Shown here piece after piece: positions 8,287 to 33,438 of a DNA stretch of 64,000 bases. Within the stretch, counting starts at the first letter, position 1; each line of letters starts with the position of its first letter. Position numbers and translations under genes: made by a program. The stretch is from Anaerolineae bacterium. GTDB lineage: Bacteria > Chloroflexota > Anaerolineae > Epilineales > JAHCIE01. The stretch lies in the NCBI GenBank assembly GCA_039810085.1, contig JBDHWG010000002.1:96281-160280 (forward strand). Reading direction: 5' to 3'. A model generated the notes under the pieces. It worked only from the letters and a program-made list of their open reading frames with translations, had not been told where the DNA came from and searched no databases.

Positions 8287-8298
8287 GGCGCATTCCCT

Positions 8299-14806: not shown

Positions 14807-14853
14807 AGAAAGCTAGATGGGCGTAAACTGAAAGAATTCTTAGTCATCTTGCA

Positions 14854-15258: not shown

Positions 15259-15854
15259 ACCCTGAGATAGACCTCCCCAACTTTGGGACGCGAGGAATCC
15301 GTAATATAATGGAGTCTCTCAATCGGTGCGTCTTTGAACAACGTCGGGACCGTTTCCTGGAGCAGTTTCGCCACCTCTTCCGACAACTGGTTGCCCTTGA
15401 TATAGTTTGGGTGATTGCCGAAGGAGATGACAAAGCCGGCGCGCCGGTTGCTCAGGCTCTGGTACTGGCTCCAGATTTGCTGTCGCAATTGCAGGCGTTC
15501 GGCATCCTTCGCCGGGCCATCTGGCCCGAGCAAGACATCGGCGTTGGTCACAAGCGTTGCCTCGCGCGGGGCAAGTTCGACGCCGGGGCGCGTCGGAACG
15601 GGTGTCGGCGGAATCACCTCGGTTGGTGTGGAGGTTGGTGTCGGTGTCAAGGTCGGCGTCAGCGTAGACGTTGGCCGGGGCGTGGGGGTGCTCGTCGGTG
15701 TCAGCGTTGGCGTTGGCGTTGGCGTTGGAACGGCAGGCGCACCCGGGCTAGCGACAAGGAAAAGCATAGCCAGGCCGAGGAGTAGGTCGGCAAAAAGCCA
15801 ACCGCTGAGCAGCGTCATGTCTCGAACTGTACCGTGAGAGCCAGATTGAGCCAT
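15240..15854 (-). CDS. Membrane/secreted protein with TP-rich linker and conserved C-terminal domain (hypothetical)
   Basis: The ORF 15240..16013 overlaps the upstream gene by 140 bp. Internal starts MAQSG (15854, preceded by a GGGGGG SD-like stretch) or MTLLSGWLFADLLLGLAMLFLVA (15818) give an N-terminal TM/signal segment followed by a (TPTP)n linker. The start is uncertain. Confidence 0.45.
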   Translation of the reverse strand: MAQSGSHGTVRDMTLLSGWLFADLLLGLAMLFLVASPGAPAVPTPTPTPTLTPTSTPTPRPTSTLTPTLTPTPTSTPTEVIPPTPVPTRPGVELAPREATLVTNADVLLGPDGPAKDAERLQLRQQIWSQYQSLSNRRAGFVISFGNHPNYIKGNQLSEEVAKLLQETVPTLFKDAPIERLHYITDSSRPKVGEVYLRVYLLGE

Positions 15855-15873
15855 CCCCCCGTCCCTTCTTGTG

Positions 15874-17363: not shown

Positions 17364-19160
17364 CTACTTGGCAAGAACCCGATATGCAACGATGCTAATA
17401 ACGATGAGTAGGAGAAGAATGCCAGCTGTGATGAGCAGTCTGTCCAGCTGACTCGATCCACTAAAATACCCAATCTTCTCGTCGATAACACGGCCCATCG
17501 CAGGCTTCCAGAGCTTGCGTTCTTCGTCGGAAAGGTTCATGGCCTGGCTTATCGTAGCGATGTCGGCCCGACGCACGTTCTTCAACAACTTTATGGCGTT
17601 GTCCGCGAGGTCTCGCCTGGCCCCTCGCTGAGGCGGTTCCTGTAACTTATGTGGGTGCCGTACCAGCCACTCGACGTATGGAACAAGCGTCTTGGGTTGG
17701 CCGTTACGCCTGTACTCCGCAAGCGCCTCCTCCGCCAAATAATCGAATATGGTTTGGCCTTTAGGGTCTGCCGGCACTCGTGGGACGAGTCTGAGTCTCT
17801 GGACAACACTATCCAACTCATCATACGTTGTCACAGCCTTGACCAGGGCTTGAGTTAGTTCGTGACGCATCCCCGTGTGACTGGATTCGGTCCATAGCTG
17901 ATTCGAGGCCTTGGATGAGATCGGCAGAGCGATTGCCTTCCATACATCAGACGCCCGCCGCTGATCACCGTTAACACGCCAGCTTTCAACCTTTTCGACC
18001 GTGTAGTCCGCCAGCCGGTCCAGGGTCTCTTGCAAGGCGTCGTCGGGCTTCGTGAGTGCGACCACGCGAAGGGCCAGTAGACGGGCGTGTATCTTGTCGC
18101 GCCGCGCCGTGTCATCGGAGCTAAGCTCTAGAAGGTCTTTCTGGAAGGCCGGAAACGCTAGCATGTCTTTCGCCACACCAGGCGTCGTGAGAATCAACGT
18201 TCGGCCCTCGTCCGACCAGGGCGGCTTGACGATGCTTGCAAGGCGGCGATACGCCGTCAGGAAGCTGCCGGTGTCGGACAGCTGCGCGCCGTTGGCGAGC
18301 GTACGGATGGCTTCGAGGCGCGCCCGGCCATCGGCCGACCTCAGCTCCGAGCCGACGAACTTCGCGTACTCACGTACATCCCTGTCCTGAGCGATAGTTT
18401 CGGGGGGCACATTACAGTCAATCAGGATACCTCGCTCCTCAAAGGTGGAGCCGACAGGCCCCGTCCCGGACGGCCTCGATGTCTTTAGCCCTCCGTAGAG
18501 GCCGACAATCTGTTGCGGCGCTTGGTCAGGGTTCGCTTCGTACGTGCTGAAGGTGAGACCGGGCAGCAGGCACGCCGGGAGTGTGTGCGTCAGGCCGTAG
18601 ATAAGCACAGCCGCATCCTCGGCTGACGCCGAGATATACAGATGCTGTCCCTCATGCCGGGACAGGTAGGCTTCAAGAAGGGAGGGGAGATAGTATTGGG
18701 CGATGCGTGATTCAAGATCCGACAGATCCAGCGTTCCCTTTGGGATATCGGATGGGCGTATCTCCGACAGCATGTTCTCGGAGGCCGGCAGCGGGTCCGA
18801 CCGGTGCCAGAAGTTCGACCCCCACAGCTCAATCGCTTCGGCGGCAGTGAACTCAGCGGGCAAACCCGCCACGACATGAATGAAGTAATTACCAGGCCGA
18901 CCCGTGTAGTCTTTGCCGAGCGAGACCTTGTGCACGACGGCGCGCTCGTGGCCTGTGTCCACAAGCGCCAGGCAAACGGGCGCTTCGTCGGGCGCAAGGG
19001 CAACGCCGCCCTGTGGCAGAACGTATCGCAAGTAGGGATCGAGGGCGGCGATGCGCGGGTTGCGCCGGTCCCGCAGCTGACCGGACGCGGCGCGAACCTG
19101 GAAGCCTAGCGCCCCACCTAGACCGACAGGCGAGAACGTGTAGAACAGCTGGTCGGCCAT
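17364..19160 (-). CDS. GAP1-like (GTPase-associated protein) N-terminal domain protein with C-terminal TM anchor
   Basis: The N-terminus MADQLFYTFSPVGLGGALGFQVRAASGQL matches a Q-L-[YF]-Y-T-[SF]-x-x-G-L-x-G-x-x-G-F-Q-x-x-A-x-S-x-G pattern. I recall this from memory for partners of conflict-system GTPases. It lies 8 nt upstream of a GTPase gene. The C-terminus LLITAGILLLLIVISIVAYRVL is hydrophobic. Confidence 0.5.
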   Translation of the reverse strand: MADQLFYTFSPVGLGGALGFQVRAASGQLRDRRNPRIAALDPYLRYVLPQGGVALAPDEAPVCLALVDTGHERAVVHKVSLGKDYTGRPGNYFIHVVAGLPAEFTAAEAIELWGSNFWHRSDPLPASENMLSEIRPSDIPKGTLDLSDLESRIAQYYLPSLLEAYLSRHEGQHLYISASAEDAAVLIYGLTHTLPACLLPGLTFSTYEANPDQAPQQIVGLYGGLKTSRPSGTGPVGSTFEERGILIDCNVPPETIAQDRDVREYAKFVGSELRSADGRARLEAIRTLANGAQLSDTGSFLTAYRRLASIVKPPWSDEGRTLILTTPGVAKDMLAFPAFQKDLLELSSDDTARRDKIHARLLALRVVALTKPDDALQETLDRLADYTVEKVESWRVNGDQRRASDVWKAIALPISSKASNQLWTESSHTGMRHELTQALVKAVTTYDELDSVVQRLRLVPRVPADPKGQTIFDYLAEEALAEYRRNGQPKTLVPYVEWLVRHPHKLQEPPQRGARRDLADNAIKLLKNVRRADIATISQAMNLSDEERKLWKPAMGRVIDEKIGYFSGSSQLDRLLITAGILLLLIVISIVAYRVLAK

Positions 19161-19168
19161 AACAATGC

Positions 19169-20377
19169 CTACTTCTCGCCGCCGAGCGTGTGGGTGGGGT
19201 GCGCAGAGGAAGCAGCGGTGGACTCAGCGCACTCGACGATGCCCAACTGCGCCAGGCACCACACAAGAGGGTCGAGACAGCGAATCGGCCGCGGGTCAAC
19301 GTAGTGTCCCTCGAACGCGGCTTCGCCCGTCGCCGAGGTCGCGCAAGTCGTCACTGTCTCGAATTTGGAGCGCGCCGCCTCGATCAGGTTGCCCGCTCCG
19401 AAGCGGCGTAAGAACGCCTCTGTCTCCTGCCGCGTGCTCTCCATAGCCTCTTGTTGACAGCCACGCGGATAGCGCGTGTCTTGCAGCAGGGGCGAGTCGG
19501 GCGGCAATCCTCCGATGACAAACTCGAGCAAGTCGGACTTCGCGATGGTCAGGGCGAGGGGCACAGGAATACGGTGGCTGCGCCGTCCATCTCTATTGAG
19601 CGCAAAAACGGCGGTCAGCTTGCTCATCATCTGATACGCGTCGTCACTTGCCGCAGTGATTGCGTCGTCGGCCCGAAAATACTTGGGAAGAACCTCTACC
19701 ACGTTGGGCAGAGTGAGCGGGTCAATGAGCAGCAGGATGGCGGCTGCATTCACGATGTGGGCAACACCTCGCCGCAGGGTGTCCTGGTCCTGCAAGTCCT
19801 CCCCGGAGACATCGAAGAACACGAGATTGACCTTGCGGGGTTCGGCAGAACGCGAAGAAGTGCCCCCGGCAAATTCCGCTTCATAGACGAGCGGAACATA
19901 GACCTCGGATGTCCTTATTCGCTGCGTATGAATGAGCGGCTCACGGGAGACAAAGAGTGGGGCATAGTAGTCCGCTTTGTAGCGCACATCCACATCTTGG
20001 CTCGCCGCCCTGAAGCTCGAACAGCCCAGGCCAGACAGGCCGCCTTCTTTCAATGTCTTGATTAAGGCAGCCAGGTACTGGCTCTTCCCGGACGAACTCC
20101 CCCCGACAATGGCGATGGGGAGCATCTCAGCCTCGTCAGCGTTGGGCGGCAGGAGATTGCCGCAATCAGAGCAGCGCCAGGTTGCCAATGTCCTGTTGTA
20201 TTTCTCACCTCTTATCGAGGGCGTCCATATCCAGCCGATGCCTCGCGCGATCCCCGCAGGACGCGAGCGTAGGACACGCTCCCCCTCATCGACAGCCACG
20301 ATGTCACACTCGCCAAGGCGAATGGCGTGGAAACACGTCGGGCAGATAGTTTTCTCGAATGGGCTGGTGAATGGCAT
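19169..20377 (-). CDS. P-loop GTPase with N-terminal zinc ribbon
   Basis: CPTC...WRCSDCG is two CxxC pairs. Walker A/G1 is AIVGGSSSGKS. G3 (DxxG) is VFFDVSGED. G4-like is TIAKSD. Confidence 0.65.
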   Translation of the reverse strand: MPFTSPFEKTICPTCFHAIRLGECDIVAVDEGERVLRSRPAGIARGIGWIWTPSIRGEKYNRTLATWRCSDCGNLLPPNADEAEMLPIAIVGGSSSGKSQYLAALIKTLKEGGLSGLGCSSFRAASQDVDVRYKADYYAPLFVSREPLIHTQRIRTSEVYVPLVYEAEFAGGTSSRSAEPRKVNLVFFDVSGEDLQDQDTLRRGVAHIVNAAAILLLIDPLTLPNVVEVLPKYFRADDAITAASDDAYQMMSKLTAVFALNRDGRRSHRIPVPLALTIAKSDLLEFVIGGLPPDSPLLQDTRYPRGCQQEAMESTRQETEAFLRRFGAGNLIEAARSKFETVTTCATSATGEAAFEGHYVDPRPIRCLDPLVWCLAQLGIVECAESTAASSAHPTHTLGGEK

Positions 20378-20548: not shown

Positions 20549-22483
20549 TTATGGAGCCAATGCGGCGCGGCTGTACTCGTTGGCCCGGCGCGCGAAAATA
20601 GGCAGCGGGGTGGCGCTCGGCTGTTCAGCTGGCAACCCGAGAAGCTCGTATGCCTGGTTGTAGTACACCGTCGCCAGGCGCTCATTGACCTGCCGATGCA
20701 GCGCGGGGTCGGTAGCGGCGTGTTGGTAGCATGCTCGTGCTTCGTCATACAGCCCAAAGGCTTCGTAGACCGCGCCGCGAAGAAGCCAGCCGCTCGCGTC
20801 TCTGCTGTCCGCGATCGACGGCTCTGCGAGCATCAAATCGAGCATCTGGCGTTCGTCCTGCGACAGAAGCCGGAAGGCCGCCCGACGAGTCACGCTCCGC
20901 TGCGTCACGTGCCCCTGAAAGTCAAGGCAGGGGTAGGTGACACTCAACTGCCAGCTGCACTTGCCTTCGCCGGCAAGCTGCGCCGCTATCTCGGCCGGGC
21001 AATTCAAGCGGTGAACCCGCTCGGCCTCGGCTCTCGTGTCGAAAGGCGCCTCCAAATCCAGGACGACGACCGACGATGTCCAGACGACCGCATTGCCAGC
21101 GCGAATTGTCACTTGGGCTGTCAACGGCGGCAGGCTCCCTTCCTGGTCCAGCACATCCTGGCAGGCGTCCATGATCTCCTGGCCGACAGTCCACTGGAAC
21201 ACAGGCGACTCACGCAGTGAGCAGCTTGCGGGCGCAAGCAGCTCTGGCGTCGCACCCAAGTGGAACTCTACCTTGACGTGAATCTCAACGTGGAGTCTAC
21301 ACAGAAACCCCACAACCCGCCGCAGCCGCCGTCGCGCCTCGGGCTGTGGCGCTGACGCCCGCCGCTCAAGTTTCGCCCGTGTCGCAAGATTGAAATCGCC
21401 CAGGCCAGGGAAGCACGCCGAATCGAACAGCCGCCCGTCCGAGGCGCGCATAAAGAGCACAGGGATGCTCCATTCGGCCTGGGTGAGGTCAGTTTGCAGG
21501 AGCGCTTTGCGGCCCTCTGTGACAGCCGCATCGACCGCCAGCCCGCCAGCGACGGCCTCGTAGAACTCGCTGGCAAAAATGCCAGCTTGCCAGTCACGCG
21601 GGCTGCCCCACATTCCAACCACCGCCGGAACCCCCGCCTGGATGAGCGCTGGTCCCACGCCCTGGCTCACATTGCTGTGGGCCGGCTCAGCGGTGTGACA
21701 CGCATTCAGAACCGCCAGCCGAACCTGGGTGTCGCTGAGCATTTGGGCCAGCTCCACCGCTGACAAACGGTCTAGCGGTTGATGGTCGCCGAGCAGATAC
21801 AGTTCGCCGCCTTTATTCGCGTTATATCTCCCATGGCCAATGAAATGGAATACGTGATAGCCCTGGCGAAGCTTATCCTGCAATGCTGCCCGTGTAGTCT
21901 CCTCGATGCAGTCCAGGACGAGTAGCCCCCTCTCCAACAGAGGCTCTAGCGCCTTCGTGACTCGGTTGCGCTCCTCGGCTGTGTCCAACGTGCTTAAGCC
22001 AGATGACGAGCCAGTCACGAGCAAGACCCGCAGCGGCAATTGGACCATGAGCGGCTGGATCGGGTACGGCGCCGGCAGGTAACGCACGAGGGGTGTGTTG
22101 AGAGACAGGGCGACGAAGTTTCTGGCGTTGATACCATCATACAGCATCTCCCAGCGGAGACGCGCTACGTCCGGCTCGGGTAAATGCAGACGGACGCGCA
22201 GCCCTTGATCGGCCCCCAGTCTGGCTCGACTGGTGGTATAGCATTGCACCACGTCCTCGGTAAATGCAAAGCCATACGGCTCGCCCGCTGCTGCCCGATC
22301 CCCGTGGACGTTCAACAGCAGACCCAGTCCACCTGCATCAGACGGCGCTCCAGGCTTCACGGGTACGCGGTACAGCCCGCCGCTCGCGTCTCCCGCGAGG
22401 TCAGATCGCGCCTCCACTCTGTACTGGCACTCGCCCGGCGCCTGGTTCTGCGTGACGCGTAGGTCGAAATTCACATATCTCAT
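20549..22483 (-). CDS. CHAT domain (caspase-like) peptidase with C-terminal TPR-like helical region
   Basis: YHVFHFIGHG (His) and LAVLNACHT (Cys) form the characteristic CHAT/caspase dyad. The C-terminal ~150 aa is helical repeats. Confidence 0.75.
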   Translation of the reverse strand: MRYVNFDLRVTQNQAPGECQYRVEARSDLAGDASGGLYRVPVKPGAPSDAGGLGLLLNVHGDRAAAGEPYGFAFTEDVVQCYTTSRARLGADQGLRVRLHLPEPDVARLRWEMLYDGINARNFVALSLNTPLVRYLPAPYPIQPLMVQLPLRVLLVTGSSSGLSTLDTAEERNRVTKALEPLLERGLLVLDCIEETTRAALQDKLRQGYHVFHFIGHGRYNANKGGELYLLGDHQPLDRLSAVELAQMLSDTQVRLAVLNACHTAEPAHSNVSQGVGPALIQAGVPAVVGMWGSPRDWQAGIFASEFYEAVAGGLAVDAAVTEGRKALLQTDLTQAEWSIPVLFMRASDGRLFDSACFPGLGDFNLATRAKLERRASAPQPEARRRLRRVVGFLCRLHVEIHVKVEFHLGATPELLAPASCSLRESPVFQWTVGQEIMDACQDVLDQEGSLPPLTAQVTIRAGNAVVWTSSVVVLDLEAPFDTRAEAERVHRLNCPAEIAAQLAGEGKCSWQLSVTYPCLDFQGHVTQRSVTRRAAFRLLSQDERQMLDLMLAEPSIADSRDASGWLLRGAVYEAFGLYDEARACYQHAATDPALHRQVNERLATVYYNQAYELLGLPAEQPSATPLPIFARRANEYSRAALAP

Positions 22484-22492
22484 GCGCCTCCC

Positions 22493-25400
22493 TTAGCCCT
22501 CGACTGGCGCGACAGATTGCGGCCCGACGGACATCGGCAGGAGCGGCGCGCCAACTCCGTCCCTGAGCGTCTTAATGCGGTAAAGGTGGTTTATCTCCGA
22601 GAGACGCATGCCCTGGGGGCGTGTCTCGAACTGTTTCGCTACAAATGCGATCCAATCGTAGGTTTGCTGCGGGACAATGTCTTCAGTTGTACCCGTAGCC
22701 GTGTCCACGCCGGCGCGGACCGCCACGTCGGCAAGCCCCTGGGTGAGAGTGCAGCACCCCAGGAACGTCTTATCCCCGCGAGCCTGGGTAATGTCGTTCG
22801 GGCTTATCTTGCCGCCTTTAGACACCATGTTGTTGTTCGCATCCATGTGTCCGATGATAAAGACATCGACGCCTGGGCGACTCAGCTCGGCGAGGACCTT
22901 CTCGCGGTCGTTGGCCTGGCCTCTGATACCTACGATTTGCGCTCCCTGCCGTTTCAACGGCTCTACCGCTGTGTCGAAAGCTGCGCGGCTGCGCTCAGCC
23001 TCTTCTGGCGTGAGTCGGGGGTCCTCCAGGTTCACGACGACCATCTGGCTCGGCATGATATTGGCTTCCGCATTGATGACGGCCCTGGCGTGCAGGGGTG
23101 TCGAGGTCTCTCCCACCAGTCGCACGTTGTTCGCTCCCAGTTCGTTGTGAGCGAATGCACCCAGGTCGGGGCGCATGTCGAGAAGCACAGGCCCATCCCC
23201 CGGCAGCAGCCAGCGAAACTGCTCATCATAGATCGGCGGGAGCTTCACCACCTCGCCCGACTGACCCGCGCGACTGAGACTGGCTTCAACCGCCCCCTTC
23301 ACCCTCTCCCGAACCGCCGCGTCGCCGATGACGCGGAGGCCGGGGTAGAACTCGTCAACCCGCTGCAGGATGTCGTGGGGATCCGCCGCCGGCGCCTGCT
23401 GTGTGAAGGTGGCTTCGATTGCGTCGCGCATGAGCATGCTCATCTCTCGCGTGACCTGCCTGCCACTCTCGTGAGACGTCGCTTGCACCTGGGCTAACTC
23501 CTGCCCTTTCGTCATGACTTCTGGGGATGTTGGCGCAAGCTCGCCGCCCCCAGTAAGCCAGGCAAATGTGCGGCGGCTATCCGCGCCATCCGTCTTGGTA
23601 TCCACTTCGAAGATGCCGGTGACACGCAGCCCCTTCGCCTGTGCGCCCACATCCGCAACCAAGCGGACGGCATCGTCCTGAGGGTGCGCGAGCCTGTCGA
23701 AATGGCGCTCCACGAGCGCCCCGTCCGTCCCCGCAACGAGGACCACCACCTCCGCCGCGCCCTCGTTCACCCCGCCAACGGCGCCGCTTTGCACATCAAG
23801 AAGACGCGTCGCATAACCGCGCTCCTTAAGCTGTGTCAACGCCGGTTGCGCTTTGACCAGCGCGTCCTGCGCCTCTTTGGAGTCCAGCCGACCGTCGATG
23901 ACGGCCGTGTCGCCCGCGAAGCGGAGAGCAAACTTGCCCGTCAGCTCGATAATCGCCGTCTTGCTTCCCTGTTTGGCGAATCCGGACCAGTCCAACTTTG
24001 AGCTATCGGACAGTGCCTGATACAGGATGCTGTTGAGTTCGAGCTTCACGCCCTGCAGCGCCTTCCGCGCCTCGGCAGGGTCGGCGGTCTGCTTTGTCTC
24101 AGTGACTGAAACCTCGGTTACCTTTGCCTGTCGGTTCCGTTGGATCGTGATGGTTCGCCGCTGCGAGTCTCGGACGACCTCGATCATGGAGCCATCCGGG
24201 TTGTAGCTAATTGCGTGGACAGAGCCATTGTCCTGATACCAGGTGACGCGGCCTATGTCATCGATGCGGGTCACGATCACCTTGTCCTGGAGTTGGAACC
24301 GGCTGGGGGAGCCGTTGGCGTAGTTGACCCGAAGCACGCGTCCGTCCGACCCGCTGACGTCCGTCAGACGCTCGCCGTCGTACGTCAGGTTGGCGCTTTT
24401 GCCGTTCGAGCCGACGATGTGCGTCAGCTTGTTGTTGTCATACTGGAACTCAATCTGACCGCCAGAGGAATGCGCGGCTTTCGTCAGGTGGTCCGCCGCA
24501 TCATACTTGTAGTCAATATGCTCGCCATCTCGCGCCTGGGAGCGCAACTGACCGTCTTCATCAAAGGTGTACTGATCCAGGCCATCCTGGTGCACGAAGG
24601 TGTGCGTCTCCCTATCGTACCTTATCTCGCTCGGCGCCGCGTTACCCTCCGCCGCATAGATGATGCGTCCGTCCCCGTCGATCCGTTTCGTGTTGTAGAA
24701 GCGTTGCTGGCGGCCCGTTGCGTCGTCCACAACGGTAAGCGAGTCGTAGAGCTTGATGGGCTGACCATTCATGATGAATGTATCGCCGCCGTCCAGGGTC
24801 ATCCGTTTCTGCTCCAGCCGCCACCCCTTGCCGAGAGGTGACGTCTCCTGGTCCACGGAGGTATAACCAATGACCGTGTTGAGCGGCAGTTGGCCCTTCA
24901 CCGCAATATCCATCACCTTCTCGCGGACGGTCAAAGCGCCCGGTAGCAGTGTCGGCTGCATCGAAATAGCGACACCGGTCACGGTCTTACCATCTCCATT
25001 AGCCGATGTTTTCGCGCTGTCGAGAGGCGTGTTCTCGACAGCCTCGCGTATGCCGCGCACGCTGCCGTCCTCTTTTAACGGCAGGGGCTTGTTGCGGAAG
25101 GCATAGTCAACGCCCCCGAATACGGCAGAGATTTGAGTCCAAATCTTGTCGCTCGACTGCTCTGATTTCGACCGCTGCACCGCGTGTCCGGGAGTCGTCT
25201 TCGGTGTCTCAGCGCCAATCGGGTAGCTCGCGAGCCAGTTGAGGTCAACCGGAGCATTGTTGTCGTGCAGCCACCGGGCTACGCTGAGTAGCTTAGCTAA
25301 CTGCTTCAGCGCGCCGACCTCGGGCTTTTCAGCCGCGAATGCGTCGAAGTGGGTGTTGAAGTGATTGACAAAGGCATCAACGACCGGGTCGGAACCGGCC

Positions 25401-26464
25401 ACGTCGTGCTTGTTCCCCTGGCTGTCGAATTGCACAAAACGCGCTTCGATGCCCAGCGGCACATCGTCGAAGAGCATGACCTGGCGGTCGTCGCTGACGC
25501 GCACATCAAGCTTCTGATCCTTGAGCAAGTACCACATGCGGTGCCACTGCGGGTTGGTCTGTTGTCCGCCAAGCTGCAGGCGCAGATCGACTTCACTCTG
25601 GTAGCCTGGCACCGCCAGCGTGACAGGTTCGTGGGTTATCGTGTCCTCGCCCAGGCCCAGTGTCTTGAGATAGCGGTCTGCCTCATACATCACCAGGCCG
25701 AAATGGGTCCCTTCCGTCTGGCCGTAGTAGCTCACTTTCATAGTCCCAGACGGGTTACGCGGGTCTATCGGATCAATACTGACGCCGGCGTCCTCGTGAC
25801 TCGAGTATACTGACCGCAACGCCACGACCAGGTCGCTCGGGTCGAGCTCGGGCAGGGACGGATTGTGGACGCCTAGCAGAAAGAGACGGCCTGTCGAAGG
25901 CTCATAAACCGCGCCGGTCAGGTCATTGATGTGCGCCAGCTGGGGCAGGCTGATCGACGGAGAGAGACCGCCCAACCCACCCCCGACGTCATAGTCCTTC
26001 GACGATACGCCGAGTTGCGCCAACAGGTCCGCAGCTTTGGAGGCCGGGTTGGCCGTGTTGAATGTGTAGCGGGTGGTCTTGTCTACAGCAAAGAGGATCT
26101 GGATGCTGGGGCCTGGTGGGGGCAATGACGCGGGGGACGCGGCGGCTGAGCTGCTCCCTAACCCACCGCCAGGCGGCGCATTTGCGCCGGTCGTTGGAGC
26201 GTTACTGGCCTGTGATGCCTTTGGCCTGGCATCGGCGGCGGGCGATGAGGGGCGGCTCAGGACGGATGGCAGCGTCGGCAACTTGGCCGCTAATGGTCGC
26301 AGTGGCCCGACGAGAATCAGACCCGCCACGAGGGCGACGAGAGCAAGGCCCACAACTGCCGCGATGATCAGCCATCGTCGAGACTTCGACGCGCGGCGGT
26401 ATGTGTACGGCGTCCCACTTTCATTCGTGGGCGTGTAGCGGAGACTATCCCAATCATCGCTCAT
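22493..26464 (-). CDS. 1323-aa membrane-anchored protein with YD/RHS-like repeats and possible C-terminal caspase-like His/Cys dyad
   Basis: N-terminal TM WLIIAAVVGLALVALVAGLILV. Multiple YD-type repeats (YTFDEDGQL, YKYDAADHL, QYDNNKL, YDGERLTDV, SYNPDGSM). The C-terminus has FIIGHMD and then FLGCCT ~35 aa later. It lies 10 nt downstream of the CHAT gene. Confidence 0.6.
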   Translation of the reverse strand: MSDDWDSLRYTPTNESGTPYTYRRASKSRRWLIIAAVVGLALVALVAGLILVGPLRPLAAKLPTLPSVLSRPSSPAADARPKASQASNAPTTGANAPPGGGLGSSSAAASPASLPPPGPSIQILFAVDKTTRYTFNTANPASKAADLLAQLGVSSKDYDVGGGLGGLSPSISLPQLAHINDLTGAVYEPSTGRLFLLGVHNPSLPELDPSDLVVALRSVYSSHEDAGVSIDPIDPRNPSGTMKVSYYGQTEGTHFGLVMYEADRYLKTLGLGEDTITHEPVTLAVPGYQSEVDLRLQLGGQQTNPQWHRMWYLLKDQKLDVRVSDDRQVMLFDDVPLGIEARFVQFDSQGNKHDVAGSDPVVDAFVNHFNTHFDAFAAEKPEVGALKQLAKLLSVARWLHDNNAPVDLNWLASYPIGAETPKTTPGHAVQRSKSEQSSDKIWTQISAVFGGVDYAFRNKPLPLKEDGSVRGIREAVENTPLDSAKTSANGDGKTVTGVAISMQPTLLPGALTVREKVMDIAVKGQLPLNTVIGYTSVDQETSPLGKGWRLEQKRMTLDGGDTFIMNGQPIKLYDSLTVVDDATGRQQRFYNTKRIDGDGRIIYAAEGNAAPSEIRYDRETHTFVHQDGLDQYTFDEDGQLRSQARDGEHIDYKYDAADHLTKAAHSSGGQIEFQYDNNKLTHIVGSNGKSANLTYDGERLTDVSGSDGRVLRVNYANGSPSRFQLQDKVIVTRIDDIGRVTWYQDNGSVHAISYNPDGSMIEVVRDSQRRTITIQRNRQAKVTEVSVTETKQTADPAEARKALQGVKLELNSILYQALSDSSKLDWSGFAKQGSKTAIIELTGKFALRFAGDTAVIDGRLDSKEAQDALVKAQPALTQLKERGYATRLLDVQSGAVGGVNEGAAEVVVLVAGTDGALVERHFDRLAHPQDDAVRLVADVGAQAKGLRVTGIFEVDTKTDGADSRRTFAWLTGGGELAPTSPEVMTKGQELAQVQATSHESGRQVTREMSMLMRDAIEATFTQQAPAADPHDILQRVDEFYPGLRVIGDAAVRERVKGAVEASLSRAGQSGEVVKLPPIYDEQFRWLLPGDGPVLLDMRPDLGAFAHNELGANNVRLVGETSTPLHARAVINAEANIMPSQMVVVNLEDPRLTPEEAERSRAAFDTAVEPLKRQGAQIVGIRGQANDREKVLAELSRPGVDVFIIGHMDANNNMVSKGGKISPNDITQARGDKTFLGCCTLTQGLADVAVRAGVDTATGTTEDIVPQQTYDWIAFVAKQFETRPQGMRLSEINHLYRIKTLRDGVGAPLLPMSVGPQSVAPVEG

Positions 26465-26507: not shown

Positions 26508-27239
26508 CTACGTCTTCGCCGCGCTTTCGTTTGGCCCAGTTTGTAGACCCAGTTGACGAGTAACCTCTTGCGTTGACAACGTCAGAGGTTCACCCAAGGC
26601 GAGGCACACGCGGCCCACAATCCGGCTCATGGTTCGATTAGCGTAATGCACGATCCACACTTCGCGCACCAGCATCCGACCGATATTCCGGCGCGCAACC
26701 TCGCGCAGCCCCGCCGCGAATCGCTCGCGCTCAACGGCCGAGGCAAAGGGCTGTGCGTTGTTCAGGTAGCCGATAGAGACGTGCAACCCGGTCTGATGCT
26801 TTGGCGCATCGAATCGCGGATAGTGCGCCAAACAGGCCGCGAGACGCTGCGCCAGCGTATCCTCATTGGCGAGCACCATCCCGCTGTCCGCCAGGTGAAC
26901 GCCACCAAGCGCCAATTGGAAAGGCGCGGCGCGGCTGCATATAGTAGCCACATCGGCGATGAAGCCAGGCAAGTCGGCCGGCAGCTCGGAGACCTCAAGT
27001 GGCGGGGCGTCGCGGTATCGCCCCCGCAGCGGTGCGGCTAGGGTCACATGCAGCTGCGGCGTTTCATACCAGACGAAGCGCCCCGGCAGCAAGCCCTCCA
27101 GGTCGTCTTGAATCGCCTGAACGCGATCACAGAGGGGTTCGGCGAGAGGCAAGCCCGCGACAAGACTGAGGCCATAGCTCGTTGCGCTGTTTCTGGCGGT
27201 GGTCTCGCGCACCTTGTCCTCGTCCAGCCATACGCCCAC
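26508..27239 (-). CDS. 2H phosphoesterase superfamily protein (LigT/2'-5' RNA ligase-like)
   Basis: Two H-x-[TS]-x motifs, LHVTLA and LHVSIGY, about 95 aa apart. Confidence 0.6.
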   Translation of the reverse strand: MGVWLDEDKVRETTARNSATSYGLSLVAGLPLAEPLCDRVQAIQDDLEGLLPGRFVWYETPQLHVTLAAPLRGRYRDAPPLEVSELPADLPGFIADVATICSRAAPFQLALGGVHLADSGMVLANEDTLAQRLAACLAHYPRFDAPKHQTGLHVSIGYLNNAQPFASAVERERFAAGLREVARRNIGRMLVREVWIVHYANRTMSRIVGRVCLALGEPLTLSTQEVTRQLGLQTGPNESAAKT

Positions 27240-27286
27240 GTCCTTAGCCTCCGCCTGCCCTATCGCGCAGCACTTACGAACGGGAA

Positions 27287-27790
27287 TTACTGTCTCGTCA
27301 CACTGATCCGCGCCTGTTCCGTTGCTCCGGGCGGTAGTAGTGTGCCAACATAGGTCTTGGTTTTCCGTGTTTCAGTAAGGTAGTCCTCAAAGGCTTTGTT
27401 GGCGCCCCGGTCGGCCGTGACGATTACCAACTGAAATACCTGGCCCTTGGATTGAGCACAGTCCCCGAACTGAACATTGCCTCGCCAAGTACCCTCTGCT
27501 TTTACAGCAGACTTACCAGAGCCTTGCGGTGTATCTTGCGGGTGGTATACACCATCCACATAGACAAGAGGCCATATCGCGTCCGTAACACTTGGCGGGT
27601 AAGCGCCTTCAATCGCAAGTCTACATGGCACTTCCTGTCCATCCTTTAGATTTGTTAGTGTAACAGTTCCCGTTCCAGTGCTAGCTGCCGGTTGGCTCGG
27701 CGAGCCTCCTCCCCCACAACCGCTGAGCGCGAGCAGGATGACGAAAAGCAGCGCAACGACTCGCCACGACACTCTATCAAGTATTCGCAT
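27287..27790 (-). CDS. Lipoprotein, paralog of the C-terminal ecto-domain of the 27827..29803 product
   Basis: Signal plus lipobox LALSGCGG. The mature region aligns along its length with the C-terminal ~130 aa of the adjacent 658-aa protein (e.g. QEVPCRLAIEGAYPPSVTDAIWPLVYVDGVYHPQDTPQGSGK vs QQVPCRTAIRGMYTPDVTDAIWPVIYVNGLYHPADTPQGSGK). Confidence 0.55.
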   Translation of the reverse strand: MRILDRVSWRVVALLFVILLALSGCGGGGSPSQPAASTGTGTVTLTNLKDGQEVPCRLAIEGAYPPSVTDAIWPLVYVDGVYHPQDTPQGSGKSAVKAEGTWRGNVQFGDCAQSKGQVFQLVIVTADRGANKAFEDYLTETRKTKTYVGTLLPPGATEQARISVTRQ

Positions 27791-27826
27791 GATATCCTCC
27801 CCTCACATTTTCATATTGACATGCAA

Positions 27827-29803
27827 TCACTGCCGCACAACCTCGACCCGCAGTCGTATGTCGGCACCATCGGGTAGTAGCATCCCCGGGAAGGATTGGG
27901 TCTTGCGGGTTTCCGCCAGATAGTTCTCGAATGCTGCATTTGCGCTACGATCCGCTATAACGATCAGCAGCTCAAACCGGTCTCCTCTCGAGAGAGTGCA
28001 GTCGCCAAATTGAACGACAGACTCCCAGGTACCGTTTGTCTTTTGCGCAGGCTTGCCCGAACCTTGAGGCGTATCTGCTGGATGGTACAAGCCATTCACA
28101 TAGATCACAGGCCAGATCGCATCTGTGACATCGGGAGTATACATACCCCTAATAGCAGTTCTGCACGGCACTTGTTGGCCAGGCTGCACGGTGGCAAGCG
28201 TGACTTTGTCGTCTCCGACAATCATCGTGGGCGTTGTGGGCGTGGGCCCGGTTACTGGAATTGTTGGGGGAGGCAGCGCGATTATTGGAGCCTGCTGCTT
28301 ATCGAACATCCCGGGTAGTAGAAATACTGCGACAACCACGACGGCAATCAAGACAGCTGCAATTGATAGTACGTACTTCCAAGAAGCCCATGTTGGCCGC
28401 CCAGGCACGGTTACTGTCGTTGTTGTTTCCAAGGGCAAAGGAGGTGTTAATGTGGGCGACGGAGTGGAGGAGGGCGGGGCCGAGTCTTCCAATGTGGGCG
28501 ACGAAGTGGAGGATATCGGGGCCGAGTCTTGCAATGTGGGCGACGGAGTGGAGGATATAGGAGTCGAGTCTTGCAATGTGGGCGACGGAGTGGAGGCGAT
28601 AGATGATATACCTGGTGTAGCCGGTAGACATGGACATGGGTGCGTGACGATGCGCGAGTAGACAATTGGCGTTGCCATCTCAATCTCCCAGGGCAGTTTC
28701 AGGTCCCGAATGGCAACGCGGCCCTTGGTTGTCTGTACTGCTAAACACTCTAGGGAGTAGTAATCCGCCCGATCTGAGGGACCTGTCAGGAAGGCATCTA
28801 CAAAGGCGCGGGCAGCCTTCGTGGAGATGGTCGTCTGCATGGCAATGACGACGCCCGCCTTGAGCAGCAGGAGGTCGAGATCTTCCTGGTCCAGTTTACC
28901 CAGGTCGCAGACCAACAGGAATAGGATATCTATCTGTCTGTGTGGCAAGTGCTCCGTGAAGTCAGAGATGGGCGAGGCTTGGAATTTTCCCGACCCTTCT
29001 TTGAAAGAAAGGACACCCGCCTCTCCATGCGTGATTAGCATAAGAAGCCCGGTCGATGGAGCGTCTACCAACGTTGCCTTAAGGCTGTCTAAATCCCCAT
29101 TGGTGGTGGAAAGCCGACCAACCTCGCTGAACCACCTCCGCCGCGTCCCTGTCACGGCGCTAATTTGCTCAATAAAGTCCTCTAAATTGTCATGACGGAC
29201 ATACTGGATCAGCCACTTTGATTCGTTGGTTCCACACAACCGATGAGCTGCTGACACGTCCTCTGGCCTAATCCGAATAATTGAGATCTTCTCATAGCAG
29301 CCTGAAAAAGGAGATTTCTTGCCTAGAAGATAAATGGTCTCCCAGTTATACCTCTGTATGTCCGCGCACAAAGCAAGCTCAATGATGAGGCAGTCGGACG
29401 AACGAACAACATTCTTCCACCAGCCCCGAAGCCCTTCGGCATTCTCTTCTCCCCAGACATCTGCTTCCCAGAATACTTCGGCGAGTTTGCCAGCCTGCTC
29501 TACCAGGACGGCTCTAAACTCCTCAATCGTTTCTAGCACAGCCTCAGATTGCTCCAATTCTCTATCTGGCTTGTAATCTGTCCCCTTCTGGAACCGTTCC
29601 TGGAATTTCCGAAGGTATTGCTTATGCTTATCAATCTTTTTGTACGTCTTGTTGGCTTCAAGCTCCGCGACCGTGCTCCACGTGCCCTCTGTACACGGCG
29701 GCGTCTCGAGGCCCGCTGGTGCGCGGCAGGCGACGAGTTTGACATCGTACCCATTCGGGGCGTTCGTTATGATGAGCCGAACAACAGAGATGTCTTGCGT
29801 CAT
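27827..29803 (-). CDS. Single-pass membrane protein: N-terminal cytoplasmic caspase/CHAT-like domain, S/T/P-rich tandem-repeat linker, TM helix, C-terminal extracellular beta-domain
   Basis: LLMLITHGEAGV (His) and ILFLLVCDLG (Cys) lie ~42 aa apart, a caspase-like arrangement. There are three STPSPTLQDSxPISS repeats. The TM segment is YVLSIAAVLIAVVVVAVFLL. The C-terminal domain is paralogous to the adjacent lipoprotein. Local GC is visibly lower (28.8-29.8 kb). Confidence 0.55.
   Translation of the reverse strand: MTQDISVVRLIITNAPNGYDVKLVACRAPAGLETPPCTEGTWSTVAELEANKTYKKIDKHKQYLRKFQERFQKGTDYKPDRELEQSEAVLETIEEFRAVLVEQAGKLAEVFWEADVWGEENAEGLRGWWKNVVRSSDCLIIELALCADIQRYNWETIYLLGKKSPFSGCYEKISIIRIRPEDVSAAHRLCGTNESKWLIQYVRHDNLEDFIEQISAVTGTRRRWFSEVGRLSTTNGDLDSLKATLVDAPSTGLLMLITHGEAGVLSFKEGSGKFQASPISDFTEHLPHRQIDILFLLVCDLGKLDQEDLDLLLLKAGVVIAMQTTISTKAARAFVDAFLTGPSDRADYYSLECLAVQTTKGRVAIRDLKLPWEIEMATPIVYSRIVTHPCPCLPATPGISSIASTPSPTLQDSTPISSTPSPTLQDSAPISSTSSPTLEDSAPPSSTPSPTLTPPLPLETTTTVTVPGRPTWASWKYVLSIAAVLIAVVVVAVFLLPGMFDKQQAPIIALPPPTIPVTGPTPTTPTMIVGDDKVTLATVQPGQQVPCRTAIRGMYTPDVTDAIWPVIYVNGLYHPADTPQGSGKPAQKTNGTWESVVQFGDCTLSRGDRFELLIVIADRSANAAFENYLAETRKTQSFPGMLLPDGADIRLRVEVVRQ
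28452..28610. repeat. ~3.7 copies of a 42-bp tandem repeat (gtgggcgacggagtggagga...gagtcttccaat)
   Basis: Direct reading. It encodes the STPSPTLQDSxPISS repeats on the minus strand and is in-frame (42 = 14 codons). Confidence 0.7.
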
Positions 29804-31492: not shown

Positions 31493-31544
31493 GCGGCCTC
31501 CTCGTGAACTGGCAGGCGACGGATGATTAGGGAAACAACATCTC

Positions 31545-33378: not shown

Positions 33379-33407
33379 AGCTCGCCTTCTATTCCCTGGT
33401 ATTTGTT

Positions 33408-33438
33408 CGTATGATACCGCCAAGAGAGGCGCTTGTCA
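33408..33438 (-). promoter_or_regulatory. Candidate promoter for GntR gene (TTGACA-17-TATCAT read on minus strand)
   Basis: The minus-strand reading is cTTGACAag-cgcctctcttggcgg-TATCAT. Its -35 box is the inverted mirror of the plus-strand -35 box at 33511. Confidence 0.35.

What the first reader, a model, noticed from the sequence alone, without database searches (positions are those of the whole stretch)
20549..26464. CHAT caspase-like protease adjacent to a 1323-aa membrane YD-repeat protein that may carry its own C-terminal His/Cys dyad
The CHAT protein has a textbook HG/C dyad. Ten nucleotides downstream starts a giant TM-anchored protein with YD/RHS-type repeats. YD/RHS repeats classically encapsulate and deliver C-terminal toxin domains. 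Its last ~70 aa contain FIIGHMD ... FLGCCT, a spacing reminiscent of caspase-fold dyads. Together with the GTPase pair this resembles the proteolytic-cascade conflict systems in which an activated caspase-like protease cleaves an effector. The C-terminal 'tip' of the YD protein is where a polymorphic toxin would be expected.
Basis: partly seen in the sequence, partly recalled or inferred. Interest (0 to 1): 0.65.

Follow-up and report, generated by a model that had tools for sequence, protein, structure and literature searches.

The report
Surface YD protein paired with CHAT protease
Two tightly linked genes encode a membrane-anchored giant surface protein that ends in its own caspase-like protease domain and a separate cytoplasmic CHAT (caspase-like) protease; this rare, previously undescribed pairing here sits beside a predicted GTPase-based bacterial conflict system.

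Summary
Both genes are on the minus strand. The 1323-aa gene (26464-22493) is upstream and the CHAT gene (22483-20549) follows after 9 nt. The CHAT protein is a clear Pfam CHAT member (E 1e-23; H217/C262).

The giant protein has these parts:
- an N-terminal signal-anchor helix;
- a 370-aa DUF1598-like domain with no match among solved structures;
- a short, degenerate DUF6531/YD segment of about seven repeats;
- a C-terminal domain whose His1206/Cys1237 are conserved in 16 of 17 relatives.

The model of the C-terminal domain matches SAVED-CHAT and caspases (Foldseek E 1e-5). So the suspected second dyad is confirmed.

The polymorphic-toxin reading is not supported. There is no RHS core motif, the YD segment is too short for a shell, and the C-terminus is constant among orthologues.

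The gene pair is conserved in 10 of 11 loci, down to 28% identity. Linkage to a DO-GTPase/GAP1-N2 system (Kaur et al. 2020) occurs in only 2 loci. In this window that system also includes tubulin and vWA genes.

Best reading: a dual-protease, membrane-associated cassette of conflict islands, with one protease outside the cell and one inside. I rate it a new variant of known kinds. The mechanism is inferred, not shown.

The parts
22493..26464 (-). Gene for the 1323-aa signal-anchored giant protein (stop codon included).
   Evidence: ORF list and translation. Rare family: 8 full-length homologues at 33-41% identity.
26306..26374 (-). Single transmembrane helix, residues 31-53 (WLIIAAVVGLALVALVAGLILVG). 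It follows the basic stretch RRASKSRR, so I predict N-terminus inside and bulk outside.
   Evidence: This is the only Kyte-Doolittle window above 1.6. My reading of the N-termini in alignment A1 gives positive-inside in 5 of 8 homologues. Three homologues have a Cys just after the helix, which looks like a lipoprotein signal.
26108..26305 (-). Pro/Ser/Ala-rich low-complexity linker, residues 54-119.
   Evidence: Translation. It is not conserved in alignment A1.
24995..26107 (-). DUF1598-like alpha/beta domain, residues 120-490. It is the most conserved part of the protein (motifs VSIDPIDP, THFG, EADRYLK, WHRMWY, KHD, QLAK).
   Evidence: 51-57% identity among orthologues. AF2 model has pLDDT 81.8 and pTM 0.81. 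No PDB fold match below E 0.5. Weak Pfam DUF1598 hits in 7 of 15 members.
24095..24922 (-). DUF6531-like segment plus a short, degenerate YD/RHS repeat run, residues 515-790 (about 7 repeats). It has no RHS core motif.
   Evidence: Pfam RHS_repeat 22.3 bits and DUF6531 17 bits. The hits recur at the same position in orthologues. BLAST similarity to true RHS repeats of P0009 and L009. No DPxG motif.
23078..24094 (-). Middle region of unknown fold, residues 791-1129. Together with the C-terminal domain it travels as one module: P0013 carries part of it (from about residue 789) with the C-terminal domain behind TPR repeats.
   Evidence: BLAST of residues 501-1040 against relatives. The part that was modelled (1040-1129) had low confidence.
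22565..23077 (-). C-terminal caspase/CHAT-fold domain, residues 1130-1300. Catalytic-type dyad H1206 (codon 22847-22849) and C1237 (codon 22754-22756).
   Evidence: AF2 pLDDT is about 80 over this core, with beta-alpha-beta order and His and Cys at strand ends. Foldseek PDB top hits are SAVED-CHAT 8tl0 (E 1.4e-5), caspase-4/-11, CED-3 and Craspase. hhalign gives in-register matches to the partner CHAT family (E 0.0029) and to the L008 C-terminus (E 9.6e-5). The L008 C-terminus itself passes Pfam CHAT. His and Cys are conserved in 16 of 17 sequences.
22484..22492 (-). 9-nt intergenic junction GGGAGGCGC with a Shine-Dalgarno sequence between the two genes.
   Evidence: Sequence read. Comparable short gaps separate the two genes in L003, L004, L010, L012, L093 and L096 (2-30 nt).
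20549..22483 (-). Gene for the 644-aa cytoplasmic CHAT protease. It has an N-terminal region (1-148), a CHAT core (149-335, H217/C262) and a cassette-specific C-terminal extension (355-644) with a TPR-like motif.
   Evidence: Pfam CHAT E 1e-23. PDB 8tl0 E 6e-15 and TPR-like matches at 561-592. No hydrophobic segment. The extension is found only in partners of the giant protein.
19169..20377 (-). DO-GTPase with an N-terminal zinc ribbon, Walker A GGSSSGKS and Walker B DVSGE. It lies 171 nt downstream of the CHAT gene.
   Evidence: Pfam DO-GTPase2 at 34.4 bits, cut-off 27. Sequence. It is the only P-loop protein in the array.
17364..19160 (-). GAP1 protein with GAP1-N2 and GAP1-M domains and a C-terminal transmembrane tail.
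   Evidence: Pfam GAP1-N2 at 51.8 bits and GAP1-M at 33 bits. Sequence.
15240..17343 (-). 489-aa membrane protein with a coiled coil, plus a 257-aa Pro/Thr-rich membrane protein. They recur together in L002 and L008.
   Evidence: BLAST hits in L002 and L008. Sequences.
26508..29803 (-). Three genes immediately upstream on the same strand: a 2H/LigT-like phosphoesterase (243 aa), a lipoprotein (167 aa), and a 658-aa protein. The 658-aa protein has a cytoplasmic caspase-like region (H259/C299), a TM helix at about 475-497, and an outside domain shared with the lipoprotein.
   Evidence: Pfam 2_5_RNA_ligase2 E 1.4e-9. hhalign of p658 against the CHAT profile gives E 0.0057, in register. p658 and p167 share 59% identity. 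Sequences.

Best explanation
This is a conserved two-gene, dual-protease cassette, probably from a Chloroflexota (Anaerolineae-like) genome.

Gene 1 encodes a type-II signal-anchored surface protein. From N to C it has a short cytoplasmic tail, one TM helix, a low-complexity linker, a DUF1598-like domain, a truncated DUF6531/YD beta-sheet, an uncharacterised region, and a divergent CHAT/caspase-fold peptidase domain with an intact His1206/Cys1237 dyad.

Gene 2 is probably translationally coupled to gene 1 (9-nt gap containing a Shine-Dalgarno sequence). It encodes a cytoplasmic CHAT peptidase (H217/C262) whose C-terminal 290 residues occur only in partners of gene 1.

The YD segment acts as a scaffold, not a toxin-encapsulating shell. 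The C-terminal domain is a constant enzymatic module, not a polymorphic toxin tip.

In this window the cassette lies in a same-strand array directly upstream of a DO-GTPase/GAP1-N2 system. That system continues, beyond a short plus-strand interlude, into vWA/filamin and tubulin genes. A third, membrane-spanning caspase-like protein lies upstream.

Inferred mechanism (not shown): the cassette is the protease arm of a membrane-associated conflict or programmed-death system. The exposed protein acts at the cell surface, by self-processing or by cleaving envelope or incoming proteins. The cytoplasmic CHAT enzyme acts as an intracellular signalling or executioner protease. The GTPase/GAP1 switch is an optional regulator where present.

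The confidence given covers the whole statement. The anatomy and the pairing are much better supported (about 0.85) than the mechanism (about 0.3).
For: Anatomy:
- Domain calls.
- AF2 plus Foldseek for the C-terminal domain: SAVED-CHAT, caspases and Craspase are top hits at E 1e-5 to 1e-3.
- In-register hhalign matches.
- A relative's equivalent domain passes Pfam CHAT.
- His and Cys are conserved in 16 of 17 sequences, and both are lost together in the one exception, P0013.

Coupling of the two genes:
- 9-nt junction with a Shine-Dalgarno sequence.
- The partner CHAT gene lies directly downstream in the window, L002, L003, L004, L010, L011, L012, L093/94, L095 and L096. That is 10 of 11 loci, down to 28% identity.
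- The partner's C-terminal extension co-occurs with the pair. It is absent from 80 other CHAT loci and from 118 of the 120 listed CHAT homologues.

Conflict context:
- DO-GTPase2 and GAP1-N2/M; Tubulin_2, vWA and Metallophos downstream. This matches the tubulin/vWA theme of GAP1-N2 systems (PMC7159879).
- The GTPase-GAP1 module is also linked in L002, in a different gene order.
- A TIR gene, a 2H phosphoesterase or a metallopeptidase occupies the position just upstream in different loci.

Topology:
- A single N-terminal TM helix with basic residues on its N-side, and no hydrophobic segment in the CHAT protein.
Against: - No experiment or direct computation links either protease to a substrate.
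- The two proteases are predicted to lie on opposite sides of the membrane. Direct cleavage or heterodimerisation is therefore not expected, and the reason for the strict pairing is unexplained.
- hhalign found no shared adaptor domain between the two proteins outside the caspase cores.
- GTPase/GAP1 linkage is seen in only 2 loci. L001, L003, L004 and L095 lack it within their available flanks.
- L001 keeps an intact giant gene without the CHAT partner.
- The query's own C-terminal domain gives no Pfam CHAT hit even at E<=10. The Gly that usually follows the catalytic His is absent.
- The C-terminal model has only moderate confidence (mean pLDDT 64, about 80 in the core).
- Topology is predicted from charge bias only, and is ambiguous for 3 of 8 homologues.
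Confidence: 0.5

Rival explanations
1. Polymorphic RHS toxin with a C-terminal 'Tox-Caspase' domain. It would be exported by its signal anchor and delivered to neighbouring cells. The downstream CHAT gene would act as the immunity or neutralising factor.
For: - Zhang et al. 2012 describe caspase-like domains at the C-termini of RHS-containing polymorphic toxins, including in Chloroflexi and via Sec export (PMC3482391).
- DUF6531 and RHS repeats are present.
- Larger relatives (L007-L009, P0009, P0017) carry extensive RHS-repeat arrays. In L008 the first array ends in a DPLGL core, ahead of the same DUF1598-like / YD / CHAT-like module.
- The downstream gene is tightly coupled, as immunity genes are.
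Against: - There is no DPxG RHS core.
- About 270 aa of degenerate repeats cannot form a shell.
- The C-terminal domain is homologous and alignable to the end in all orthologues, so it is not polymorphic.
- The downstream protein is a 644-aa enzyme with an intact dyad, unlike known small immunity proteins.
- L001 has the giant gene without it.
- The larger RHS relatives lack the CHAT partner.
Confidence: 0.15
2. Direct proteolytic cascade or heterodimer. The downstream CHAT protease would cleave or pair with the caspase-like domain of the giant protein, as in caspase activation or Craspase-Csx30. This is what the first reader proposed, and it requires the giant protein's bulk to be cytoplasmic.
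For: - The pairing is strict (10 of 11 loci).
- Both proteins carry caspase-fold domains.
- Kaur et al. 2020 note that caspase domains tend to co-occur in two components of one system.
- Charge bias around the TM helix is ambiguous in P0002, P0003 and P0007.
Against: - Positive-inside bias in 5 of 8 homologues, and signal-peptide or lipobox-like N-termini, put the bulk outside.
- RHS and DUF6531 domains are typical of exported proteins.
- The CHAT protein has no export signal.
- No shared adaptor domain was found.
Confidence: 0.15
3. The C-terminal domain is a non-catalytic pseudo-protease, used for binding or scaffolding. The giant protein would be a surface adhesin or cell-cell contact protein, teneurin-like, whose linkage to CHAT and the GTPase genes reflects only co-regulation in a genomic island.
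For: - The Gly after the catalytic His is missing.
- The query itself gives no Pfam CHAT hit.
- An inactive family member exists (P0013: His to Gln, Cys to Ser).
- Like teneurins, it is a type-II membrane protein with YD repeats.
Against: - His and Cys are retained together across about 25% identity in 16 of 17 sequences, and are lost together in the one exception. That is the pattern expected for a working dyad.
- Pairing in 10 of 11 loci down to 28% identity argues for more than island co-residence.
Confidence: 0.15

Closest known systems
GAP1-N2-type DO-GTPase ('GTPase-centric') conflict systems, predicted by Kaur, Burroughs, Iyer & Aravind, eLife 2020 (PMC7159879)
   Same: The window has a ZnR-DO-GTPase followed by GAP1-N2/GAP1-M with a C-terminal TM. 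It also has membrane components and tubulin, vWA and Ig/filamin-like genes. This is the 'tubulin theme' that the paper reports for Firmicutes and Actinobacteria. Caspase-type peptidases are listed there as effector or signalling domains of related systems.
   Different: The paper does not mention RHS, DUF1598 or this cassette (0 occurrences). It cites caspase effectors for GAP1-N1 systems, not GAP1-N2. The cassette occurs without the GTPase system in most loci, so it is an accessory, not a core part.
EACC1-caspase membrane-associated two-gene system (System 4 of Kaur et al. 2020)
   Same: It has a 5' gene for a single-TM protein and a 3' gene for a protein with an N-terminal caspase domain and a variable C-terminal domain. 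The N-terminal half of CHAT644 belongs to a large CHAT clade whose C-termini are hypervariable: TPR, WD40, FGE-sulfatase, TIR and PD40.
   Different: The 5' protein here is 1323 aa with large extracellular domains and its own protease. It gives no EACC1 Pfam hit.
Tox-Caspase / RHS polymorphic toxins (Zhang et al. 2012, PMC3482391)
   Same: Sec-type anchor, DUF6531/RHS repeats and a caspase-fold His/Cys domain as the C-terminal-most domain.
   Different: There is no RHS core autoprotease motif, no full shell, no C-terminal polymorphism and no small immunity gene.
CHAT proteases of defence systems: SAVED-CHAT (PDB 8tl0) and Craspase TPR-CHAT/Csx29 (7zoq, 7x8a)
   Same: These are the best structural matches for the C-terminal domain and the best sequence match for CHAT644. 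CHAT644 also has a TPR-like element.
   Different: Neither protein has a SAVED domain, and there is no CRISPR or CBASS context. No activating ligand or substrate is identified.
Teneurins and bacterial YD-shell proteins
   Same: Type-II membrane topology with extracellular YD repeats. Relatives score on the Teneurin YD-shell Pfam model.
   Different: The query has only a short repeat run and ends in a protease domain rather than an encapsulated toxin-like domain.

Membership tests
CHAT domain, Pfam PF12770 (clan CD caspase-like peptidases): the 644-aa protein | Score above the Pfam gathering threshold | tested here: met
   84.6 bits against a cut-off of 24, E 1e-23.
CHAT domain, Pfam PF12770 (clan CD caspase-like peptidases): the 644-aa protein | Catalytic His(-Gly) and Cys after consecutive beta strands, conserved in orthologues | tested here: met
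   H217-G218 and C262 are invariant in alignment A3. The profile matches solved SAVED-CHAT 8tl0 at E 6e-15.
CHAT/caspase fold: C-terminal domain of the 1323-aa protein | Sequence match to the Pfam CHAT model | tested here: not met
   None of the 8 orthologous C-termini hits CHAT at E<=10. The homologous domain of relative L008 does pass (30.3 bits, cut-off 24). Distant relatives P0025 and P0024 score 20.3 and 13.2 bits.
CHAT/caspase fold: C-terminal domain of the 1323-aa protein | Caspase-hemoglobinase alpha/beta fold | tested here: met
   The AF2 core has pLDDT of about 80. Foldseek PDB top hits are 8tl0 SAVED-CHAT (1.4e-5), caspase-4, CED-3, caspase-11 and Craspase.
CHAT/caspase fold: C-terminal domain of the 1323-aa protein | Conserved His/Cys dyad in register with known CHAT dyads | tested here: met
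   H1206 and C1237 are invariant in 8 of 8 orthologues and conserved in 16 of 17 sequences including distant ones. They align with the CHAT His and Cys in hhalign.
CHAT/caspase fold: C-terminal domain of the 1323-aa protein | Peptidase activity | not testable with these tools
   Needs biochemistry.
RHS/YD polymorphic toxin | Long array of RHS/YD repeats able to form an encapsulating shell | tested here: not met
   One Pfam stretch at 22.3 bits. I count about 7 degenerate repeats in residues 600-790 by eye. True relatives show 15-22 stretches.
RHS/YD polymorphic toxin | RHS core with a DPxG-type autoproteolytic motif before the toxin | tested here: not met
   No DPxG anywhere in the protein. 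L008 has ...IDPLGL.
RHS/YD polymorphic toxin | C-terminal tip replaced by unrelated domains among close homologues | tested here: not met
   All orthologues align to residue 1300-1315 of 1323. The C-domain is 24-36% identical across them.
RHS/YD polymorphic toxin | Small cognate immunity gene directly downstream | tested here: not met
   The downstream gene is a 644-aa CHAT enzyme.
GAP1-N2 DO-GTPase system (Kaur et al. 2020) | DO-GTPase with N-terminal zinc ribbon(s) and a Glu in Walker B | tested here: met
   DO-GTPase2 at 34.4 bits against cut-off 27. CPTC...CSDC, GGSSSGKS and DVSGE are read.
GAP1-N2 DO-GTPase system (Kaur et al. 2020) | GAP1 gene downstream of the GTPase, with GAP1-N2 and GAP1-M domains | tested here: met
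   51.8 and 33 bits, both above cut-off 24. The gene starts 9 nt after the GTPase gene.
GAP1-N2 DO-GTPase system (Kaur et al. 2020) | FNIII-repeat component and the tubulin/vWA theme | tested here: inconclusive
   Tubulin_2 (E 2.8e-40) and VWA_2 with a Filamin repeat are present. No FNIII Pfam hit was found.
GAP1-N2 DO-GTPase system (Kaur et al. 2020) | The giant-protein/CHAT pair is a regular component of the system | tested here: inconclusive
   Linked in the window and in L002, in different gene orders. Not linked in L001, L003, L004 or L095 within their available flanks.
EACC1-caspase two-gene system | The 5' gene encodes the small EACC1 single-TM domain | tested here: not met
   No EACC1 hit appears in Pfam scans of 7 family members at E<=5. 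The protein is 1323 aa.

The most novel reading that the evidence does not exclude
The cassette could be a two-compartment caspase relay in a filamentous, multicellular bacterium. A surface-exposed CHAT-like protease on a DUF1598/YD scaffold would detect or process an external cue, such as a phage, a neighbouring cell or envelope damage. Through the membrane partners (the TM caspase-like p658, the GAP1 TM tail and the coiled-coil TM protein), that event would license the cytoplasmic CHAT executioner. This would be a prokaryotic outside-in death-receptor-like pathway built from three caspase-fold proteins.
Probability: 0.1. Interest if true: 0.8.

Novelty: new variant of a known kind. Interest (0 to 1): 0.45.

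Why it matters
CHAT/caspase proteases are emerging as executioners in bacterial immunity, in Craspase, SAVED-CHAT and gasdermin activation. The GTPase-centric systems of Kaur et al. remain purely computational predictions.

This cassette is a compact, strictly conserved pair in which one caspase-fold protease is predicted outside the cell and one inside. In this window a third spans the membrane. If that holds, it offers a tractable entry point to two questions. The first is how membrane-associated conflict systems in multicellular bacteria pass information across the envelope. The second is what the DUF1598-like domain does; its model matched no solved structure.

It also shows that short YD-repeat segments next to a C-terminal domain should not automatically be read as toxin-delivery shells.

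Tried and rejected
- A profile search with the C-terminal alignment in the search for homologous proteins returned nothing, not even the family itself. This looks like a word-filter failure. The exhaustive representative search then found only 16 proteins in 1.84 billion.
- A PDB sequence-profile search with the C-domain gave only noise. The same search with the N-domain also gave only noise.
- A metagenome scan with the giant-protein alignment found nothing.
- A metagenome scan with the CHAT alignment gave 80 generic CHAT loci. None had the giant protein, GTPase, GAP1 or the partner-specific extension.
- I looked for a recurrent small TM (EACC1-like) gene upstream of those 80 CHAT genes. There was no consistent family.
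- I looked for a shared adaptor domain between the giant protein and CHAT644 with local hhalign. All comparisons gave E>0.1.
- The promoter/terminator scan was no better than shuffled sequence.
- The source organism could not be identified. The exact-sequence look-ups gave no names or records. Chloroflexota is inferred only from relatives in Anaerolineales MAGs.
- The PADLOC library gave only a weak SAVED_CHAT hit for the CHAT core and nothing for the giant protein.

Full report
**Observation**

The interval 20549-26464 holds two minus-strand ORFs. The 1323-aa gene (26464-22493) is upstream. The 644-aa gene (22483-20549) starts 10 nt after it, across the junction TAA-GGGAGGCGC-ATG, which contains a Shine-Dalgarno sequence.

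The 644-aa protein is an unambiguous CHAT protease:
- Pfam CHAT scores E 1e-23.
- Its profile matches the solved SAVED-CHAT protein 8tl0 at E 6e-15.
- H217 and C262 are invariant in four orthologues.
- It has no hydrophobic segment, so I take it to be cytoplasmic.

**Anatomy of the giant protein**

The protein has one hydrophobic helix at residues 31-53, preceded by RRASKSRR. By my reading of the aligned N-termini, five of eight homologues have a clear positive-inside bias. Three have a Cys just after the helix, as in lipoprotein signals. I therefore predict that the N-terminus is inside and the remaining ~1270 residues are outside. This is an inference, not a demonstrated fact.

The domains after the helix are, in order:

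1. A Pro/Ser/Ala-rich linker.
2. Residues 120-490, the most conserved part (51-57% identity among orthologues).
   - With a 15-sequence alignment it gives a confident AF2 model (pLDDT 81.8, pTM 0.81).
   - The model has no PDB match better than E 0.5.
   - It has one viral-library match, a Tupanvirus J-domain protein (E 6.5e-8).
   - Seven of 15 members give weak Pfam DUF1598 hits at the THFG...EADRYLK motif.
3. Residues 515-790, which give a marginal RHS_repeat hit (22.3 bits, cut-off 22) and a weak DUF6531 hit.
   - The same weak hits recur at the same positions in orthologues.
   - The segment aligns with true RHS repeats of larger relatives.
   - So the YD repeats are real, but I count only about seven, all degenerate.
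   - There is no DPxG RHS core motif anywhere in the protein.
4. Residues 791-1129, of unknown fold.
5. The C-terminal domain, residues ~1130-1300.

**The C-terminal dyad**

FIIGH(1206)MD and FLGC(1237)CT lie 117 and 86 residues from the C-terminus, not in the last 70. Several results point the same way:

- Conservation:
  - Both residues are invariant in all eight full-length homologues.
  - An exhaustive profile search of 1.84 billion representative proteins found only 16 family members.
  - In a wider alignment, His and Cys are kept in 16 of 17 sequences.
  - The one exception (P0013, fused to TPR repeats) has lost both together.
- Profile comparisons:
  - The His, the Cys and the following 'AGA..A.G' strand align in register with the partner CHAT family (E 0.0029).
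  - They also align with the C-terminus of relative L008 (E 9.6e-5).
  - That L008 domain itself passes Pfam CHAT (30.3 bits).
- Structure:
  - The AF2 model has a core pLDDT of about 80.
  - It shows beta-alpha-beta-alpha-beta(His)-hairpin-beta(Cys)-alpha-beta order.
  - Its best PDB matches are SAVED-CHAT, caspase-4/-11, CED-3 and Craspase Csx29 (E 1.4e-5 to 5e-3).

Two points go the other way. The query's own sequence gives no Pfam CHAT hit. The usual Gly after the catalytic His is absent. I conclude that this is a divergent but probably active CHAT/caspase-fold domain.

**Synteny**

A CHAT gene orthologous to CHAT644 over its full length lies immediately downstream of the giant gene in 10 of 11 distinct loci. 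The match includes the C-terminal extension wherever the contig allows it to be seen.

| Locus | Giant-protein homologue | Partner CHAT downstream? |
|---|---|---|
| window | query | yes |
| L002 | P0008 | yes |
| L003 | P0003 | yes |
| L004 | P0006 | yes |
| L010 | P0007 | yes |
| L011 | P0002 | yes (partial; contig ends) |
| L012 | P0005 | yes |
| L093/L094 | P0022 | yes |
| L095 | P0021 | yes (gene not called; found by tblastn) |
| L096 | P0023 | yes (partial; contig ends) |
| L001 | P0004 | no |

The giant-protein identity to the query falls to 28% in the most distant of these loci.

Residues 1-350 of CHAT644 belong to a very large CHAT clade with hypervariable C-termini: TPR, WD40, FGE-sulfatase, TIR and PD40. 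None of 80 other loci from that clade carries the giant protein, the GTPase genes or the 355-644 extension. The pairing is therefore specific and ancient.

**Wider context in the window**

- Downstream, after a 171-nt gap, lie:
  - a zinc-ribbon DO-GTPase;
  - GAP1-N2/GAP1-M with a TM tail;
  - a TM coiled-coil protein;
  - a Pro/Thr-rich membrane protein.
- After a plus-strand ECF-sigma-like gene pair come:
  - a 1480-aa helical protein;
  - a metallophosphoesterase;
  - a vWA-filamin protein;
  - a 1435-aa tubulin-zinc-ribbon protein.
- This matches the GAP1-N2 'tubulin/vWA' theme predicted by Kaur et al. 2020. Only that paper describes these systems in the searchable literature.
- There is only one P-loop GTPase, so the 'GTPase pair' is really a GTPase plus GAP1.
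- Upstream, on the same strand, lie:
  - a 2H phosphoesterase;
  - a lipoprotein;
  - a 658-aa protein with a cytoplasmic third caspase-like region (LITH259G...LLVC299D);
  - that region aligns in register with CHAT at hhalign E 0.0057;
  - the 658-aa protein also has a TM helix and an outside domain 59% identical to the lipoprotein.
- The GTPase-GAP1-TMcc-p257 block is also linked to the pair in L002, but in the opposite order. It is not present in L001, L003, L004 or L095. The linkage is therefore facultative.
- The gene directly upstream of the giant gene varies between loci: 2H here, TIR in L004, an ATLF-like metallopeptidase in L010.

**Relatives**

Four MAG loci carry larger RHS-repeat proteins containing the same DUF1598-like domain. 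Three are assigned to Anaerolineales or Anaerolinea and one to an archaeon. P0009 and P0017 are of the same kind. Pfam scans of the complete proteins (L007-L009, P0009, P0017) show 15-22 RHS repeat stretches.

In L008 the order is:
- a TM helix;
- an RHS array ending in a canonical ...IDPLGL core;
- the DUF1598-like domain;
- a second RHS repeat set;
- a C-terminal domain that passes Pfam CHAT.

P0017 ends in the same C-terminal domain family. These larger proteins lack the partner CHAT gene.

**Interpretation**

The polymorphic-toxin reading fails four defining tests:
- no shell-length repeat array;
- no RHS core;
- no C-terminal polymorphism;
- no small immunity gene.

A C-terminal caspase-like domain on an RHS-type protein is, however, a known theme ('Tox-Caspase', Zhang et al. 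2012).

A direct cascade, in which CHAT644 cleaves the giant protein, is untested. It conflicts with the predicted topology. No shared adaptor domain was found between the two proteins.

The best-supported description is a conserved dual-protease cassette associated with conflict islands. It has a surface-exposed CHAT-like enzyme on a DUF1598/YD scaffold and a cytoplasmic CHAT enzyme with a cassette-specific C-terminal domain. Here it is adjacent to a GAP1-N2 GTPase system and a third caspase-like membrane protein.

It is analogous to, but not a member of, the EACC1-caspase two-gene system. The mechanistic link between the two compartments is inferred and remains the main open question.

**Verdict**

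I rate the cassette a new variant of known kinds, of moderate interest.

Noticed in passing
window 27827-29803 (-) and 27287-27790 (-): The 658-aa protein looks like a third caspase-like protease (LITH259GE ... LLVC299D; hhalign against the CHAT profile gives E 0.0057, in register). It continues with a PST-rich linker, a TM helix (~475-497) and an outside domain 59% identical to the adjacent 167-aa lipoprotein (lipobox LSGC). A homologue of that outside domain also lies upstream of the pair in L004.
   Followed up: partly
window 26508-27239 (-); L004 1243-2214; L010 137-700: The gene directly upstream of the giant gene varies between loci. Here it is a 2H/LigT-like phosphoesterase with both HxT/S motifs. 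In L004 it is a TIR_2 protein, and in L010 a small ATLF-like zinc metallopeptidase. This kind of swapping is typical of conflict systems.
   Followed up: partly
window 1330-13712 (-): Four further same-strand genes lie here: a 1480-aa all-helical protein with no Pfam hit, a calcineurin-like phosphoesterase, a vWA plus filamin-repeat protein (874 aa), and a 1435-aa Tubulin_2 protein with C-terminal double zinc ribbons. This is the tubulin/vWA theme of GAP1-N2 systems. Kaur et al. reported that theme as restricted to Firmicutes and Actinobacteria.
   Followed up: partly
window 13877-15258 (+); L001 14042-16054; L003 6404-8297: A sigma-70 region-4 (ECF-like) gene plus a small partner gene interrupts the minus-strand array. 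Homologous sigma and ~260-aa partner genes lie next to the giant gene in L001 and just after the CHAT gene in L003.
   Followed up: partly
window 29822-32537 (-): An ADP-dependent PFK/glucokinase-like protein (556 aa, weak hits) and a HEAT-like 330-aa protein head the same-strand array, with 18-52-nt gaps. A GntR/UTRA regulator lies just upstream (32605-33423).
   Followed up: no
L008 9533-15952; also L006, L007, L009, P0009, P0017: These are larger RHS-repeat relatives (1445-2202 aa) that carry the same DUF1598-like domain amid 15-22 RHS repeat stretches. In L008, and by the same domain order P0017, a TM helix and a first RHS array precede the DUF1598-like domain. In L008 that array ends in an IDPLGL core. 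A second RHS set and a CHAT-like C-terminal domain follow. That is about 1400 aa placed after an RHS core, far too large to be encapsulated.
   Followed up: partly
model of window residues 116-505 of the giant protein (24950-26119): The confident model of the DUF1598-like domain has no PDB fold match. It has one significant hit in the viral structure library, a Tupanvirus 'J domain-containing protein' (E 6.5e-8, TM 0.45).
   Followed up: no
P0013 (937 aa; found): This family member carries the middle-plus-C-terminal module behind TPR repeats instead of the TM/DUF1598/YD part. It has lost both catalytic residues (His to Gln, Cys to Ser).
   Followed up: partly
L005 5778-12392 (P0010): Here the DUF1598-like domain sits at the C-terminus of an unrelated 1358-aa protein. 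The protein ends where the YD region would begin, and IS110 and ISL3 transposase genes follow. This looks like a truncation or rearrangement.
   Followed up: no
window 25349-25813 (+) and similar antisense ORFs: Long ORFs antisense to the giant gene appear 'conserved' across loci in BLAST. They are mirror images of the conserved coding strand in GC-rich DNA, not genes.
   Followed up: yes
L009 (contig JBHHXX010000034.1): A bacterial-type RHS relative of the giant protein sits in a MAG labelled Candidatus Geothermarchaeales archaeon. This may be mis-binning or horizontal transfer.
   Followed up: no
L093 6478-9254 (-): An Imm11-family immunity-protein gene (from polymorphic-toxin systems) lies on the opposite strand just beyond the CHAT partner of a distant family member.
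   Followed up: no
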